Source: Escherichia phage EcoDS1. From it: a stretch of DNA of 39,252 bases. Positions within the stretch are counted from its first letter, which is position 1, and every line of letters begins with the position of its first letter. The translations under genes and the position numbers were made by a program. The DNA lies in the sequence record NC_011042.1; one strand, given 5' to 3'. The notes below the pieces were generated by a model, which saw nothing but the letters and a program-made list of their open reading frames with translations, made no database searches and was not told the DNA's origin. Positions 1 to 39,252 of this stretch are shown one piece after another.

Positions 1-178
1 TCTCACAGTTCAAGAACCTCAAGTCTCCCCATAGGCCCTCTTTCAGTCCAGACCAAAGGCCCTACCCCAGTCTATCATAAGGTTGGACCGATGGTCAAGA
101 CGTTAGGTCGACGATAGGTTGCGGCTATGGCTTAGGGAAGGACGATAGGTAGGGACTATGGGTCTTCTTTGAGTCTCT
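1..178. repeat. Left direct terminal repeat (DTR), 178 bp
   Basis: Bases 1..178 are identical to 39075..39252 by direct reading; T7-like genomes carry terminal redundancy of this size. Confidence 0.9.
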
Positions 179-6038: not shown

Positions 6039-6056
6039 ACTATCACTATAGGATTA
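6034..6056 (+). promoter_or_regulatory. Phage-RNAP promoter (phi1.1-like)
   Basis: CTAAACTATCACTATAGGATTAG; +1 G at 6051. Confidence 0.8.
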
Positions 6057-6061
6057 GACTC

Positions 6062-6088
6062 AAGGTCATGACTCAGAGTCGTGGCCTT
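6062..6088 (+). other. RNase III-type processing hairpin (R1.1-like)
   Basis: AAGGUCAUGAC/GUCGUGGCCUU stem of 11 bp including G-U pairs, 5-nt loop; paralogous to the hairpins at 13055 and 35950. Confidence 0.5.
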
Positions 6089-6126
6089 CATGATTAACCC
6101 TAATAAACTACTGGAGATTTAACCGT

Positions 6127-8568: not shown

Positions 8569-8723
8569 GCGACGTCGAGAAGAAATACATCGTGGAGCTT
8601 GAGGGTCGAGTTAAGTCCTTCGAGGTTCCGGTGTACGCAAAGTCTCTTGAAGAGGCTACCCTGAAGTCCCAAGAGTATGAGGACGCTGGGTTTGTGGTCG
8701 GACGGATTCGTCCTGAGACCTAA
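8565..8723 (+). CDS. gp2-like inhibitor of host RNA polymerase
   Basis: 52 aa; SFEVPVYA and [10 protein letters not shown] resemble T7 Gp2; below the ORF-track cutoff. Confidence 0.7.
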
Positions 8724-8741
8724 ACTATCACTGTAGGACAG
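8719..8741 (+). promoter_or_regulatory. Phage-RNAP promoter (phi2.5-like), variant
   Basis: CCTAAACTATCACTGTAGGACAG: one substitution (A to G at -3) relative to the consensus. Confidence 0.6.
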
Positions 8742-8781: not shown

Positions 8782-9480
8782 ATGGCTAAAGAGCAACTGA
8801 AGACTTTCACCACTCCGGTAGCTGGTATCGTTGAGCCCTACGCATGGCTGAACAAAGCAGACACCAAGTTTAACGAGCGTGGTGAGCATAAGGTTAACCT
8901 GACTTTCAGTCTGGATGACCCGAAAGTCCGTAAGATGATTGATGTCTTACAGAAGATTCACGACGATGCGTATGCGAAAGCACTCACAGACCACGAGAAG
9001 AACCCGCCTCAGGTTCAGCGTGGCAAGAAGCCTATTGAACCGCGTGAAGGCGACATGCCGTGGATTGAGAATGGTGATGGTACTGTTACCCTTAAGTTTA
9101 AATGCTTTGCGTCTTACCTTAAAGACGGCAAGTCCGAGCCTATCGTATTACGGTTCTACGACACCGATGCTAAACTCATCCGTGACGTACCGAATATTGG
9201 CGCTGGCTCCAAACTTAAGGTCAAGTTTAAAGTCCTGCCGTTTAAGTGGAACGCTGCGACTGGTGCAAGCGTTAAGCTACAGCTTGAGTCCTGCCTTCTG
9301 GTAGAACTGAAGGAGTGGAAAGGTGATGGTGCTGGTGGTGATGGTGGCTGGGGTGATGATGAAGACATCGGTACTGGCTACAAAGCGTCAACTGATGGTG
9401 ACTTCGGGTCTGACGACTTCGGTGACGATGGTTCCGAAGGTGGTGACGACTCCAGCTCTGGTGGCGATTACGATTTCTAA
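8782..9480 (+). CDS. Single-stranded DNA-binding protein (gp2.5)
   Basis: 232 aa; GASVKLQLES..LVEL and an acidic C-terminal tail ending in DF, as in T7 gp2.5. Confidence 0.95.
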   Translation: MAKEQLKTFTTPVAGIVEPYAWLNKADTKFNERGEHKVNLTFSLDDPKVRKMIDVLQKIHDDAYAKALTDHEKNPPQVQRGKKPIEPREGDMPWIENGDGTVTLKFKCFASYLKDGKSEPIVLRFYDTDAKLIRDVPNIGAGSKLKVKFKVLPFKWNAATGASVKLQLESCLLVELKEWKGDGAGGDGGWGDDEDIGTGYKASTDGDFGSDDFGDDGSEGGDDSSSGGDYDF

Positions 9481-9935
9481 TGGCCCAATGGTCTGCAAAA
9501 CGGGGGCACTCTGTGGGTGCCTACCGCTCTGGACTTGAAGCCAAGAACCAGCAGTGGCTGGAACAGAACGGCGTCAAAGCGGAGTACGAAAGCCATTATA
9601 TCAACTATGTGATTCCGGCTTCCGACCACAAGTATACACCAGACTTTATCCTTCCTAACGGTATCATCGTGGAGACAAAAGGTATCTTCGATAGTGATGA
9701 CCGTAAGAAGCACCTTCTGGTACGAGAACAGTACCCAGAGTTAGACATCCGGTTCGTGTTCTCAAGTTCCCGCTCCAAGCTATACAAAGGGTCTCCGACC
9801 ACGTATGGCGCATGGTGCGAAAAGAACGGCTATAAGTATGCCGATAAGTTCATCCCGGTTGAGTGGCTCCGAGAGGCGACTGTACGTCTGCCTTCAGGTA
9901 TACTCATTCCCAAGAAGAAAGGAGTTAAGAAATGA
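9480..9935 (+). CDS. Endonuclease I (gp3), Holliday-junction resolvase
   Basis: 151 aa; YVIPASDHKYTPDF, VETKG, DDRKKHLLVREQYPELDIRFVFSSSRSKLYKGSPTTYG match T7 gp3. Confidence 0.95.
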   Translation: MAQWSAKRGHSVGAYRSGLEAKNQQWLEQNGVKAEYESHYINYVIPASDHKYTPDFILPNGIIVETKGIFDSDDRKKHLLVREQYPELDIRFVFSSSRSKLYKGSPTTYGAWCEKNGYKYADKFIPVEWLREATVRLPSGILIPKKKGVKK

Positions 9936-10423
9936 GCAAGAAGTTTAAACTGTCAGTAGCTACGTGTGGCTGGCCTCGTGGGACTATCGTTACCAAGTGT
10001 GAGAAGGATCCTAGCCCCCGTCCGGGCATGACCCTAGTTGAGTGCCATACTCCAGGCATCTACAAACACGGGTCTAACGGCCACAATACTCAGCCTGATG
10101 GTATGTGGGGAGCATGGGTCTCTGCTTATGACCTTGAGGAAATCAAGCCGGAAGAGAAACTCACTGGTGTACAGACCACTCAAGTCCTACCAGCTTCGAG
10201 CGTACCTCCCGTGACAGTGAAACGCGAAGTCCTGACAATCGATAAGATTGGCGTTGGTCAGACGTTCATCGTCCACGGTAAGCCTGACGAAGTTTACGTT
10301 AAGATTAGCAACTCTCACGTCTTCAACCATAAGCGTCTCCAGATGCATACCACGGACGCACAACGCTTCACCCAGCACCTGAATCTGGTGGTCGTAGAAT
10401 TGGTGGTGTACAATGGTAAGTAA
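9932..10423 (+). CDS. Hypothetical protein (163 aa) between endonuclease I and lysozyme
   Basis: ORF track; start and stop both overlap neighbouring genes; no T7 counterpart at this position; several Cys in the N-terminal 40 aa. Confidence 0.65.
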   Translation: MSKKFKLSVATCGWPRGTIVTKCEKDPSPRPGMTLVECHTPGIYKHGSNGHNTQPDGMWGAWVSAYDLEEIKPEEKLTGVQTTQVLPASSVPPVTVKREVLTIDKIGVGQTFIVHGKPDEVYVKISNSHVFNHKRLQMHTTDAQRFTQHLNLVVVELVVYNGK

Positions 10424-10871
10424 GGTACAGTTCAACCCACGGTCCCGGACTGACGCTATCTTCGTTCACTGTTCGGCTACCAAGCCAGAGATGGACATCG
10501 GGGTAGAGACCATCCGTATGTGGCATAAGCAACAAGGCTGGCTGGACGTAGGCTACCACTTTATCATCAAGCGCGATGGTACTGTGGAAGAGGGGCGCCC
10601 GGTCAATGTCGTAGGGTCACACGTTAAGGACTGGAACTCCAAGTCCGTAGGCGTCTGCCTTGTAGGTGGAATTGACGCTAAGGGCAAGTTTGAAGCTAAC
10701 TTCACTCCGGCCCAGATGAACTCACTACGCAACAAGCTGGCTGACCTGAAGGCCATGTACCCTCAGGCAGAAATAAAAGCACACCATGACGTCGCACCAA
10801 AGGCGTGTCCAAGTTTCGACTTACAACGCTGGCTGGCTACCAATGAGCTGGTCACTTCCGACCACGGTTAA
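10413..10871 (+). CDS. Lysozyme / N-acetylmuramoyl-L-alanine amidase (gp3.5)
   Basis: 152 aa; DAIFVHCSATKP, GWLDVGYHFIIKRDGTVEEGR, VCLVGGID, HHDVAPKACPSFDL match T7 lysozyme. Confidence 0.95.
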   Translation: MVSKVQFNPRSRTDAIFVHCSATKPEMDIGVETIRMWHKQQGWLDVGYHFIIKRDGTVEEGRPVNVVGSHVKDWNSKSVGVCLVGGIDAKGKFEANFTPAQMNSLRNKLADLKAMYPQAEIKAHHDVAPKACPSFDLQRWLATNELVTSDHG

Positions 10872-10894: not shown

Positions 10895-11111
10895 ATGATT
10901 AAATTTATCGAATTTCTTGGTCGTCTGGTGGTGCGTGGTTATCGTCGTGCTGCGACTATGGAACGAAAGGTAGCACGAGAAGACTGCTGACGGTGCAGCG
11001 GATGCTGCTGCTCTGGCTGACAAGCTGACCATCGCGTCACTGGAAGCTGGTATGAAGGCACGTCAGGCTGACACCAAAGCCGACCAGCTGTCTCAGTTCT
11101 TCAAAGCCTAA
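10895..11111 (+). pseudogene. Possible frameshifted remnant ORF
   Basis: ATG at 10895 with AGGAGAG RBS gives 31 aa to TGA at 10988; an overlapping open frame continues to TAA at 11109..11111 but contains no ATG until near its end. Confidence 0.25.
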
Positions 11112-11130
11112 ACTATCACCTTAGGGATGG
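11108..11130 (+). promoter_or_regulatory. Phage-promoter-like element upstream of gene 4, divergent
   Basis: CTAAACTATCACCTTAGGGATGG: two mismatches in the CACTATA core. Confidence 0.4.
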
Positions 11131-35929: not shown

Positions 35930-35949
35930 ATCTCTTAAGTGTTAGACTC

Positions 35950-35976
35950 AAGGTCATTACTGTATGTAGTGGCCTT
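35950..35976 (+). other. RNase III-type processing hairpin (R18.5-like)
   Basis: AAGGUCAUUAC/GUAGUGGCCUU 11-bp stem with G-U pairs, 5-nt loop; third paralogue. Confidence 0.5.
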
Positions 35977-36039
35977 TATGGTTAACACTAACTAGTGGAG
36001 GAGACTCTACGTGAAATCTGATAAACCGGGAGGGCACCC

Positions 36040-39074: not shown

Positions 39075-39252
39075 TCTCACAGTTCAAGAACCTCAAGTCT
39101 CCCCATAGGCCCTCTTTCAGTCCAGACCAAAGGCCCTACCCCAGTCTATCATAAGGTTGGACCGATGGTCAAGACGTTAGGTCGACGATAGGTTGCGGCT
39201 ATGGCTTAGGGAAGGACGATAGGTAGGGACTATGGGTCTTCTTTGAGTCTCT
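39075..39252. repeat. Right direct terminal repeat (DTR), 178 bp
   Basis: Identical to 1..178. Confidence 0.9.

What the first reader, a model, noticed from the sequence alone, without database searches (positions are those of the whole stretch)
9932..10423. Unassigned 163-aa ORF between endonuclease I and lysozyme
In T7 the lysozyme gene follows endonuclease I closely. Here a 163-aa ORF overlaps both neighbours at start and stop, which argues for real translation, and shows no motif I recognise apart from four Cys in the first 40 residues. It sits in the class II replication/recombination cluster.
Basis: inference. Interest (0 to 1): 0.45.

Follow-up and report, generated by a model that had tools for sequence, protein, structure and literature searches.

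The report
Gene 3.2 of K1F-like phages
The ORF is a real, already catalogued but functionally uncharacterised gene (gp3.2 of phage EcoDS1 and the K1F group) that encodes two small SH3-like barrels: a nearly invariant C-terminal one and a fast-evolving, swappable N-terminal one.

Summary
The 163-aa ORF at 9932-10423 (+) is real. It has a Shine-Dalgarno site, an ATGA overlap with endonuclease I and an 11-nt overlap with the amidase. Its sequence is under purifying selection. The window is Escherichia phage EcoDS1, and the protein is 100% identical to the deposited 'gp3.2' (83% to K1F gp3.2; PHROG 16385 and 15211, both unknown function). So it does have a gene number in the K1F group (Kayfunavirus), but no function. 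T7 has no counterpart.

There are three Cys (12, 23, 38), only C23 is invariant, and there is no zinc motif.

New here:
- The protein is modular. A C-terminal ~70-aa domain (invariant Y..SNSHxFN....QxHxT...R, dN/dS about 0.1) is present in about 218 phage genomes.
- That domain is preceded by N-terminal domains of at least 6 unrelated sequence types, or by none.
- The EcoDS1-type N-domain has a conserved scaffold with hypervariable loops. It forms a sharply bounded low-identity cassette between 90-100% identical flanks.
- Pfam, NCBIfam, PADLOC, PDB sequence searches and the literature give nothing.

Best guess, low confidence: a non-enzymatic binding or adaptor protein of the class II period, with a constant docking module and a variable targeting module. 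Interest is modest.

The parts
9932..10423 (+). gene 3.2 CDS (163 aa plus stop), identical to EcoDS1 gp3.2
   Evidence: P0001 100% identity, contig 39252 bp; 82.8% to K1F gp3.2
9916..9923 (+). Shine-Dalgarno site (AAAGGAG) for gene 3.2, inside the last codons of gene 3; the start is ATGA-coupled to the gene 3 stop
   Evidence: sequence read
9932..10147 (+). N-terminal domain, residues 1-72 ('type A', GWPxGTIVTKC...GMWGAWV): a five-strand SH3-like barrel with a conserved scaffold and hypervariable loops at 8-12, 16, 24-34, 39-43, 48-52 and 64-67
10148..10210 (+). Linker, residues 73-93. Its second half (QVLPASSVPPV) is conserved, predicted disordered, and is the junction at which the different N-domains are joined
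   Evidence: pLDDT below 50; alignments; dN/dS 0.20
10211..10420 (+). C-terminal constant domain, residues 94-163 (matches PHROG 15211; occurs alone as a 74-aa protein in SH4/Dev2-type phages): a small SH3-like barrel
10295..10369 (+). Family-wide invariant core, Y122-x3-S126 N127 S128 H129-x-F131 N132-x4-Q137-x-H139-x-T141-x3-R145 (F146 nearly invariant). It is conserved even in the roughly 35%-identical Providencia-phage branch
   Evidence: (50 sequences)
10400..10423 (+). Overlap zone. The amidase (gene 3.5) RBS GGTGGTG and its ATG at 10413 lie inside the last codons of gene 3.2, so these codons are under dual constraint
   Evidence: sequence; ORFs
9480..9935 (+). gene 3, endonuclease I: the upstream neighbour, translationally coupled in every branch of the family
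10413..10871 (+). gene 3.5, N-acetylmuramoyl-L-alanine amidase: the downstream neighbour
8715..8739 (+). Phage-RNAP promoter (CTAAACTATCACTGTAGGAC) that heads the 2.5-3-3.2-3.5 transcription unit
   Evidence: repeat family D2/D4
11103..11127 (+). Next phage promoter, before gene 4. No promoter or terminator lies inside gene 3.2

Best explanation
Shown: this is gene 3.2 of the K1F group of T7-like phages (Kayfunavirus and close relatives). It is a genuine class II protein, co-transcribed and translationally coupled with endonuclease I and the amidase. It consists of two small SH3-like beta-barrels joined by a flexible Pro/Ser-rich linker. The C-terminal barrel is the constant, defining module. 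It is present in essentially every phage of the clade, sometimes alone, and is under very strong purifying selection, with an invariant polar cluster (SNSH / QxHxT / R). The N-terminal barrel is an optional, exchangeable and fast-evolving module. At least six unrelated sequence types occupy the same slot. Within the EcoDS1/K1F type, about 28 loop positions vary almost freely on a fixed scaffold.

Inferred mechanism: gp3.2 is a non-enzymatic binding or adaptor protein. Its constant C-domain docks on a partner conserved across all hosts of the clade, either a phage replication/recombination protein or a highly conserved host protein. Its variable N-domain engages a strain-variable target. That would make it a host-takeover or counter-defence accessory factor acting during the DNA-metabolism period. 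The identity and architecture are well supported (about 0.9). The adaptor or counter-defence mechanism is a guess (about 0.3).
For: Identity:
- 100% identical to EcoDS1 gp3.2 and 83% to K1F gp3.2 at the same position.
- PHROG 16385 matches full length; PHROG 15211 matches the C-domain only.

Real gene:
- RBS and overlaps with both neighbours.
- dN/dS of 0.01-0.2 on the C-domain, with dS up to 1.5.

Modularity:
- Alignments of EcoDS1, IME278, SH4, CR8 and STP-SP8 forms.
- Cluster representatives and the distant branch.
- Tandem A+B N-domains in 226-aa variants.
- N-domain types are unrelated by hhalign, with probabilities of 15% or less.
- Types B and C occur only at this locus.

Fold:
- In BFVD only the protein's own family is significant, followed by many 70-85-aa uncharacterised phage proteins.

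Hypervariable cassette:
- Nucleotide identity is 90-100% in gene 3, 30-70% from 9930 to about 10190, and 84-100% afterwards.
- dN/dS is about 1.06 at 28 variable positions versus 0.13 at the other 44 N-domain positions.
- Up to 18 residue types occur per position in 101 proteins.
- Two independent recently diverged pairs show 40.5 nonsynonymous versus 4.5 synonymous changes in the N-domain, against 3 versus 22 in the C-domain (Fisher p = 1.6e-10; test of omega above 1, p = 0.057).

Distribution:
- About 218-220 phage records carry it, versus 219 with endonuclease I at 80% identity or more.
- The roughly 1230 other endonuclease-I phages lack it, apart from a few Providencia phages.
- Only 15 clusters were found among 1.84 billion representative proteins.
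Against: - No experiment, no characterised homologue and no informative fold match supports any particular function.
- Omega above 1 is not significant at the domain level (p = 0.057). Omega near 1 at the variable sites is equally what relaxed constraint on surface loops would give.
- About half of the phages make do with the C-domain alone, so the N-domain may be a dispensable appendage rather than a targeting module.
- N-domain type does not track host genus cleanly. Type A is found in Escherichia, Hafnia, Providencia, Kosakonia and Salmonella phages.
- An invariant cluster of Ser/Asn/His/Gln/Thr/Arg could be a ligand-binding or catalytic site rather than a protein interface.
- No PADLOC or anti-defence family hit was found.
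Confidence: 0.45

Rival explanations
1. The only functional unit is the constant C-domain. The N-terminal segment is a tolerated, largely neutral appendage that drifts, is replaced by illegitimate recombination and is often lost. Its variability would then say nothing about targets.
For: - Standalone 74-aa forms are the commonest architecture.
- Truncated N-domains occur, for example P0122, P0164 and P0172.
- Omega is about 1 at the variable sites.
- The test of omega above 1 is not significant.
Against: - Forty-four scaffold positions of the type-A N-domain are under strong purifying selection (dN/dS 0.13).
- The domain folds with pLDDT about 92.
- Every N-domain type is kept in frame as a domain-sized unit of about 55-75 aa, and two types can be stacked.
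- A neutral spacer would not keep a folded scaffold.
Confidence: 0.25
2. gp3.2 is an accessory factor or regulator of endonuclease I, or of recombination and host-DNA breakdown. The C-domain would bind gp3 or branched DNA and modulate junction cleavage.
For: - In every branch, including the roughly 35%-identical Providencia branch, the gene starts on the stop codon of gene 3. Extra ORFs can be inserted between it and the amidase, but never between it and gene 3.
- The count of records carrying gp3.2 equals the count with Kayfunavirus-type endonuclease I.
- SH3-like barrels can bind nucleic acid, for example the KOW, L2 and Hpy99I N-domain hits.
Against: - Gene order is rigid in all T7-like phages, so adjacency is weak evidence.
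- T7 and about 1230 other endonuclease-I phages work without it.
- The Providencia-branch endonuclease I is no closer to EcoDS1's (67%) than T7's is (64%).
- C-domain net charge ranges from -3 to +4 across the family, so there is no consistent basic surface.
Confidence: 0.15
3. The invariant polar cluster (S126 N127 S128 H129, Q137, H139, T141, R145) is a small-molecule, nucleotide or metal pocket. The C-domain would then be a sponge for an immune signalling molecule or a tiny enzyme, as in Tad/Acb-type sponges.
For: - The invariant residues are polar or charged rather than hydrophobic.
- Extreme conservation of a 70-aa domain, omega 0.01-0.1.
Against: - There is no sequence similarity to any sponge or anti-defence family.
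- Oligomeric state is unknown.
- Model coordinates could not be inspected, so it is not shown that the invariant residues form one pocket.
Confidence: 0.1
4. A Cys-rich, zinc-binding small protein, as hinted by the first reader.
For: Three Cys lie within the first 38 residues of the EcoDS1 protein.
Against: - Only C23 is conserved. Position 12 is Tyr in 45 of 101 sequences and position 38 is Ser in 65 of 101.
- There is no CxxC or HxxH pair.
- The predicted fold is an SH3-like barrel, not a zinc ribbon.
Confidence: 0.02
5. A chance ORF or annotation artefact that is not translated.
For: No published proteomic or functional evidence was found.
Against: - RBS and coupling with both neighbours.
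- Conserved in about 218 genomes at the same locus.
- dN/dS is far below 1 with substantial dS.
- Both domains give confident fold predictions.
Confidence: 0.01

Closest known systems
gp3.2 of Escherichia phage K1F / EcoDS1 (PHROG 16385; C-domain alone is PHROG 15211, e.g. Cronobacter phage Dev2 gp3.2, Citrobacter phage SH4 gp18, CR8 gene 3.01)
   Same: The same protein: 100% identical to EcoDS1 gp3.2 and 83% to K1F gp3.2. It has the same position between genes 3 and 3.5 and the same overlaps.
   Different: Nothing differs. The family name is only a gene number, and no function, structure or phenotype is recorded for any member.
SH3-like small beta-barrels (eukaryotic SH3; EF-P domain I/KOW; FeoA; DtxR C-terminal SH3-like domain; ribosomal L2 C-domain; Hpy99I N-terminal barrels)
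   Same: Both predicted domains have five-strand barrel topology. Such domains typically act as binding modules, not enzymes. In the N-domain the variable positions fall mostly in inter-strand loops.
Fast-evolving phage accessory genes in 'accessory regions' (Silas et al., bioRxiv 10.1101/2023.04.06.535777), many of which are counter-defence factors
   Same: A sharply bounded, highly variable segment lies between highly conserved core genes in closely related phages, and unrelated sequences occupy the same slot.
   Different: Here the variability is confined to one domain of a protein whose other domain is among the most conserved sequences in the genome. The protein is not in that paper's text or supplements. 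No counter-defence activity has been shown.
T7 class II small proteins between genes 2.5 and 4 (gp2.8, gp3.8 HNH endonucleases; gp3.5 lysozyme)
   Same: Same transcription class and neighbourhood.
   Different: T7 has no ORF between genes 3 and 3.5. Profile searches of all T7 six-frame ORFs with the N-domain and C-domain profiles gave nothing better than E = 0.68.

Membership tests
K1F-group gp3.2 (PHROG 16385 / 15211) | Full-length sequence match to the family profile | tested here: met
   phrog_16385 E = 1.3e-96 over residues 1-163; phrog_15211 E = 2.2e-40 over residues 94-163; 100% identical to EcoDS1 gp3.2
K1F-group gp3.2 (PHROG 16385 / 15211) | Position immediately downstream of endonuclease I (gene 3), upstream of the amidase (gene 3.5), same strand | tested here: met
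K1F-group gp3.2 (PHROG 16385 / 15211) | Invariant C-domain core Y-x3-SNSH-x-FN-x4-Q-x-H-x-T-x3-R | tested here: met
   Y122, S126-H129, F131, N132, Q137, H139, T141 and R145 are present
SH3-like beta-barrel fold (structural class, not a homologous family) | Five-strand partly open barrel recovered by structure comparison | tested here: inconclusive
Eukaryotic-type SH3 (Pfam SH3_1 and relatives) or KOW | Sequence match to the family HMM, with its conserved ligand-binding residues | tested here: not met
   No Pfam hit at E up to 10
Zinc-finger / Cys-cluster protein | Conserved set of four Cys/His ligands | tested here: not met
   Three Cys, only C23 invariant
A T7 gene product under another number | Detectable homologue encoded anywhere in the T7 genome | tested here: not met
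   hmmsearch --max of both domain profiles against all T7 six-frame ORFs gave a best E of 0.68-0.77. tblastn at E up to 10 finds no Teseptimavirus record.
Known anti-defence or defence-associated families (PADLOC-DB), NCBIfam, PDB chains | Sequence match | tested here: not met
Nucleotide-sponge anti-defence proteins (Tad2-like) | Fold match well above background, plus a conserved ligand pocket and oligomer | tested here: inconclusive

The most novel reading that the evidence does not exclude
gp3.2 founds an undescribed class of modular phage host-interaction proteins. It would have an ultra-conserved 70-aa effector or docking barrel, carrying the SNSH/QxHxT/R site, fused to interchangeable, diversifying SH3-like 'reader' domains. 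These would retarget it to different strain-specific host factors such as defence proteins. That makes it a protein-level analogue of cassette-swapping receptor-binding proteins, but acting intracellularly during the class II period.
Probability: 0.2. Interest if true: 0.6.

Novelty: already known. Interest (0 to 1): 0.3.

Why it matters
As found, it matters little: the ORF is an already deposited hypothetical gene (gp3.2). It gains some value because K1F-type phages are used for therapy and engineering against E. coli K1 and other pathogens. This gene is a clade-wide core gene of unknown function. It also contains the sharpest variability hot spot in an otherwise 90-100% conserved replication block. 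If the variable N-domain turns out to determine success on particular host strains, it would be a compact, engineerable host-compatibility determinant. The invariant C-domain would point to a conserved, still unknown step in the T7-like class II programme.

Tried and rejected
- **Family libraries.** Pfam at E up to 10, NCBIfam, PADLOC and PDB sequence searches, with single sequences and with profiles A2 and A4, gave no hits.
- **Other N-domain types.** Pfam and PHROG scans of nine other N-domain types matched only through the C-domain.
- **Exhaustive phmmer.** A search of 1.84 billion representatives found 15 clusters, all in this family.
- **Profile iterations.** The first (A3) found one distant branch in Providencia-like phages. 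The second (A5) found nothing new.
- **T7 homologue.** Profile searches against T7 six-frame ORFs found none.
- **Internal duplication or a common origin of the N-domain types and the C-domain.** hhalign probabilities were 15% or less, so this was rejected at sequence level.
- **First AF2 run.** With 101 close homologues, the C-domain came out at pLDDT below 50. It was rescued by an alignment that includes the distant branch.
- **Nucleic-acid binding inferred from charge.** Net charge is inconsistent, from -3 to +4.
- **Embedded promoter or terminator as the cause of C-domain conservation.** None was found, and dS is high, so the constraint is on the protein.
- **Literature.** Searches for gp3.2, EcoDS1, K1F, Kayfunavirus plus anti-defence, and the peptide SNSHVFN gave no functional information. 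The K1F genome paper is not held.
- **Positive selection.** It is suggestive only: p = 0.057 at domain level, and p = 0.03 post hoc for residues 64-67.

Full report
**1. The observation.**
The window contains an ATG-initiated ORF at 9932..10423 (+), 163 aa.
- Its ATG forms ATGA with the stop of the endonuclease I gene (9480..9935).
- The amidase ATG (10413) lies 11 nt before its stop.
- An AAAGGAG Shine-Dalgarno sequence sits 8 nt upstream.
- T7 indeed has nothing between genes 3 and 3.5; both meet at base 10706.
- Phage-polymerase promoters of consensus CTAAACTATCACTATAGGGA lie at 8715-8739 and 11103-11127. Genes 2.5, 3, this ORF and 3.5 therefore form one class II transcription unit, with no promoter-like or terminator-like site of note inside the ORF.
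There are three Cys (12, 23, 38), not four. In 101 homologues only C23 is invariant, while position 12 is mostly Tyr and position 38 mostly Ser. There is no zinc motif.

**2. Identity.**
The protein is 100% identical to 'gp3.2 [Escherichia phage EcoDS1]' on a 39,252-bp contig, so the window is the EcoDS1 genome.
- It is 82.8% identical to K1F gp3.2 at the same position.
- It matches PHROG 16385 over its full length and PHROG 15211 over residues 94-163. Both are of unknown function.
- All records annotate it as hypothetical. One paper lists 'gp3.2' only as a BLAST label.
However, the number carries no function.

**3. It is a real gene.**
- The last 70 codons have dN/dS of 0.01-0.2, with dS of 0.1-1.5, across nine phages.
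- A parsimony (SLAC-like) count on 18 type-A genes gives dN/dS of 0.56 for residues 1-72, 0.20 for residues 73-93 and 0.10 for residues 94-163.

**4. Distribution.**
- tblastn finds the protein in 218-220 of 50,697 phage records. Most of those named are Kayfunavirus, plus Caroctavirus CR8 and two or three Providencia phages.
- Endonuclease I at 80% identity or more to EcoDS1's occurs in 219 records. About 1230 further records have a more distant endonuclease I, and apart from a few Providencia phages they lack gp3.2.
- The counts agree, which suggests near-universal presence in the clade. Set identity was not checked.
- An exhaustive phmmer search of 1.84 billion representative proteins returned only 15 clusters.
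- A profile search found a second branch, about 35% identical, in Providencia-like T7-group phages. There too the gene starts on the stop codon of endonuclease I, but one to three extra ORFs separate it from the amidase.
- A further profile iteration found nothing new.
- T7 encodes no detectable homologue.

**5. Architecture.**
Alignments show a constant C-terminal module.
- Residues 94-163 carry a core that is invariant across both branches: Y122, S126-N127-S128-H129, F131, N132, Q137, H139, T141 and R145 (F146 nearly invariant).
- In the main branch this module is preceded by a conserved linker (PQVLPASSVPPVTVKR).
- Upstream of it, different phages carry different N-terminal domains of about 55-75 aa:
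  - type A, as in EcoDS1 and K1F (GWPxGTIVTKC...GMWGAWV);
  - type B (L-x-DL-x-x-G-x-Y-x-F..., for example IME278);
  - types C to F;
  - several singletons.
- Other arrangements also occur: A and B in tandem (226-227 aa), truncated stubs, or nothing at all (the 74-aa SH4/Dev2 form).
- The N-domain types are not detectably related to each other or to the C-domain; hhalign probability is 15% or less.
- Types B and C occur only at this locus, in 27 and 11 phage records respectively. Eight of the type C records are Enterobacter phages.

**6. A hypervariable cassette.**
- Against relatives, nucleotide identity is 90-100% through endonuclease I. It collapses to 30-70% exactly from the gp3.2 start (about 9930) to about 10190. 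It then returns to 84-100% through the linker, the C-domain and the amidase. This holds even for phages with the same N-domain type.
- Within type A the scaffold is fixed: G13-W14-P15, G17-C23, L35-E37, Y44-G47 and T53-W62, with dN/dS of 0.13 over 44 positions.
- Twenty-eight positions vary almost freely, with dN/dS about 1.06. They lie at 8-12, 16, 24, 28-34, 39-43, 48-52 and 64-67, mostly in predicted loops. Up to 15-18 residue types occur per position among 101 proteins.
- Two phylogenetically independent, recently diverged pairs (EcoDS1/Baskent_phicoli_1 and LM33_P1/Bas105) show 40.5 nonsynonymous versus 4.5 synonymous changes in the N-domain. The same pairs show 3 versus 22 in the C-domain (Fisher p = 1.6e-10).
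- The test for omega above 1 over the whole N-domain gives p = 0.057. Residues 64-67 reach omega of about 3 (p = 0.03, post hoc).
- Diversifying selection is therefore suggested but not demonstrated. Relaxed constraint on the loops is the alternative.

**7. Structure.**
- AlphaFold2 on 101 close homologues gives the N-domain at pLDDT about 92: five strands at 4-7, 19-22, 33-38, 59-64 and 68-71.
- The C-domain failed in that run. With an alignment that includes the distant branch it reaches pLDDT about 92 for residues 100-149.
- In BFVD only the protein's own family is significant. It is followed by a long tail of uncharacterised 70-85-aa phage proteins.
- The linker is predicted to be disordered.
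- The fold class implies binding modules rather than an enzyme, but it does not transfer a function.

**8. Mechanism.**
- Shown: a two-barrel, beads-on-a-string class II protein with a constant C-module and an exchangeable, fast-evolving N-module.
- Inferred, at low confidence: the C-module docks on something conserved across all hosts of the clade. This could be a phage replication or recombination protein, or a conserved host protein. The N-module would recognise something strain-variable. Together this gives an adaptor for host takeover or counter-defence.
- Rivals considered:
  - the N-module is a dispensable appendage;
  - gp3.2 partners endonuclease I or junction DNA. Strict coupling to gene 3 in both branches favours this. 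Rigid T7-type gene order, the absence from most endonuclease-I phages and the inconsistent C-domain charge (-3 to +4) weigh against it;
  - the invariant polar cluster is a ligand or metal pocket (sponge-like). Only weak, generic fold hits support this.
- The Cys-cluster and spurious-ORF readings are rejected.

**9. Comparison and novelty.**
- The object itself is already known, as a deposited hypothetical gene named gp3.2. It belongs to no characterised family.
- I found no description in the searchable literature of its domain modularity, of the extreme contrast in constraint between its halves, or of the cassette-like hot spot.
- These are descriptive additions, not a function.

**10. Verdict.**
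This is an ordinary, real, previously annotated orphan gene with an interesting evolutionary signature. Interest is 0.3. The most novel reading not excluded is a new class of modular intracellular host-interaction proteins, with probability of about 0.2.

Noticed in passing
window 10895-11110: Gene 3.7 (71 aa in K1F) is split in EcoDS1. The N-terminal 26 residues are in one frame (ORF 10895..10990, 31 aa) and the C-terminal part (…SLEAGMKARQADTKADQLSQFFK) is in another. This is either a frameshift near 10975-10990 or a sequencing error.
   Followed up: partly
window 1-178 and 39075-39252: Perfect 178-bp direct terminal repeats, as expected for a complete T7-like genome.
   Followed up: no
window 2245, 6035, 7726, 8720, 11108, 16993, 19814, 20820, 25368, 33041, 38501 (starts of the conserved core): Eleven copies of a phage-RNAP promoter-like 20-mer, CTAAACTATCACTATAGGGA. 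The one before gene 4 (11103-11127) deviates: CACCTTAGGGA.
   Followed up: no
L004 (Salmonella phage STP-SP8) 1787-2236: A 149-aa ORF with HNH-type homing-endonuclease motifs (…HHGPIP…RHKCDNKLCLNPDHLE…) is inserted between gp3.2 and the amidase in this phage group. The gp3.2-3.5 junction is therefore an insertion site.
   Followed up: no
window 9480-9935 vs L005-L008: The endonuclease I gene has much lower synonymous divergence (dS 0.06-0.10) than the adjacent gp3.2 C-domain (0.1-0.7) and the amidase (about 0.2) in the same phage pairs. This suggests mosaic recombination or a recent sweep of gene 3. In two close pairs the N-domain also has about 5-fold fewer synonymous differences than the C-domain (p = 0.0007).
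   Followed up: partly
window 6042-6103 and 35930-35991: A 62-nt direct repeat (77% identity), in the first copy beginning inside a promoter copy (…TAGACTCAAGGTCAT…GTGGCCTT.ATG.TTAAC.CTAA). It may be an RNA-processing or regulatory element.
   Followed up: no
window 9323-9538: A 71-aa GTG-initiated ORF in an alternative frame spans the gene 2.5/gene 3 junction. It corresponds in position to the 'gp2.55' annotated in K1F. No evidence was examined for or against its expression.
   Followed up: no
L002 (Citrobacter phage SH4) 1037-1492: In SH4, endonuclease I is annotated as only a 72-aa C-terminal fragment, with an unannotated gap upstream. It may be a frameshifted or split gene 3 in phages that carry the 74-aa C-domain-only gp3.2.
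   Followed up: no
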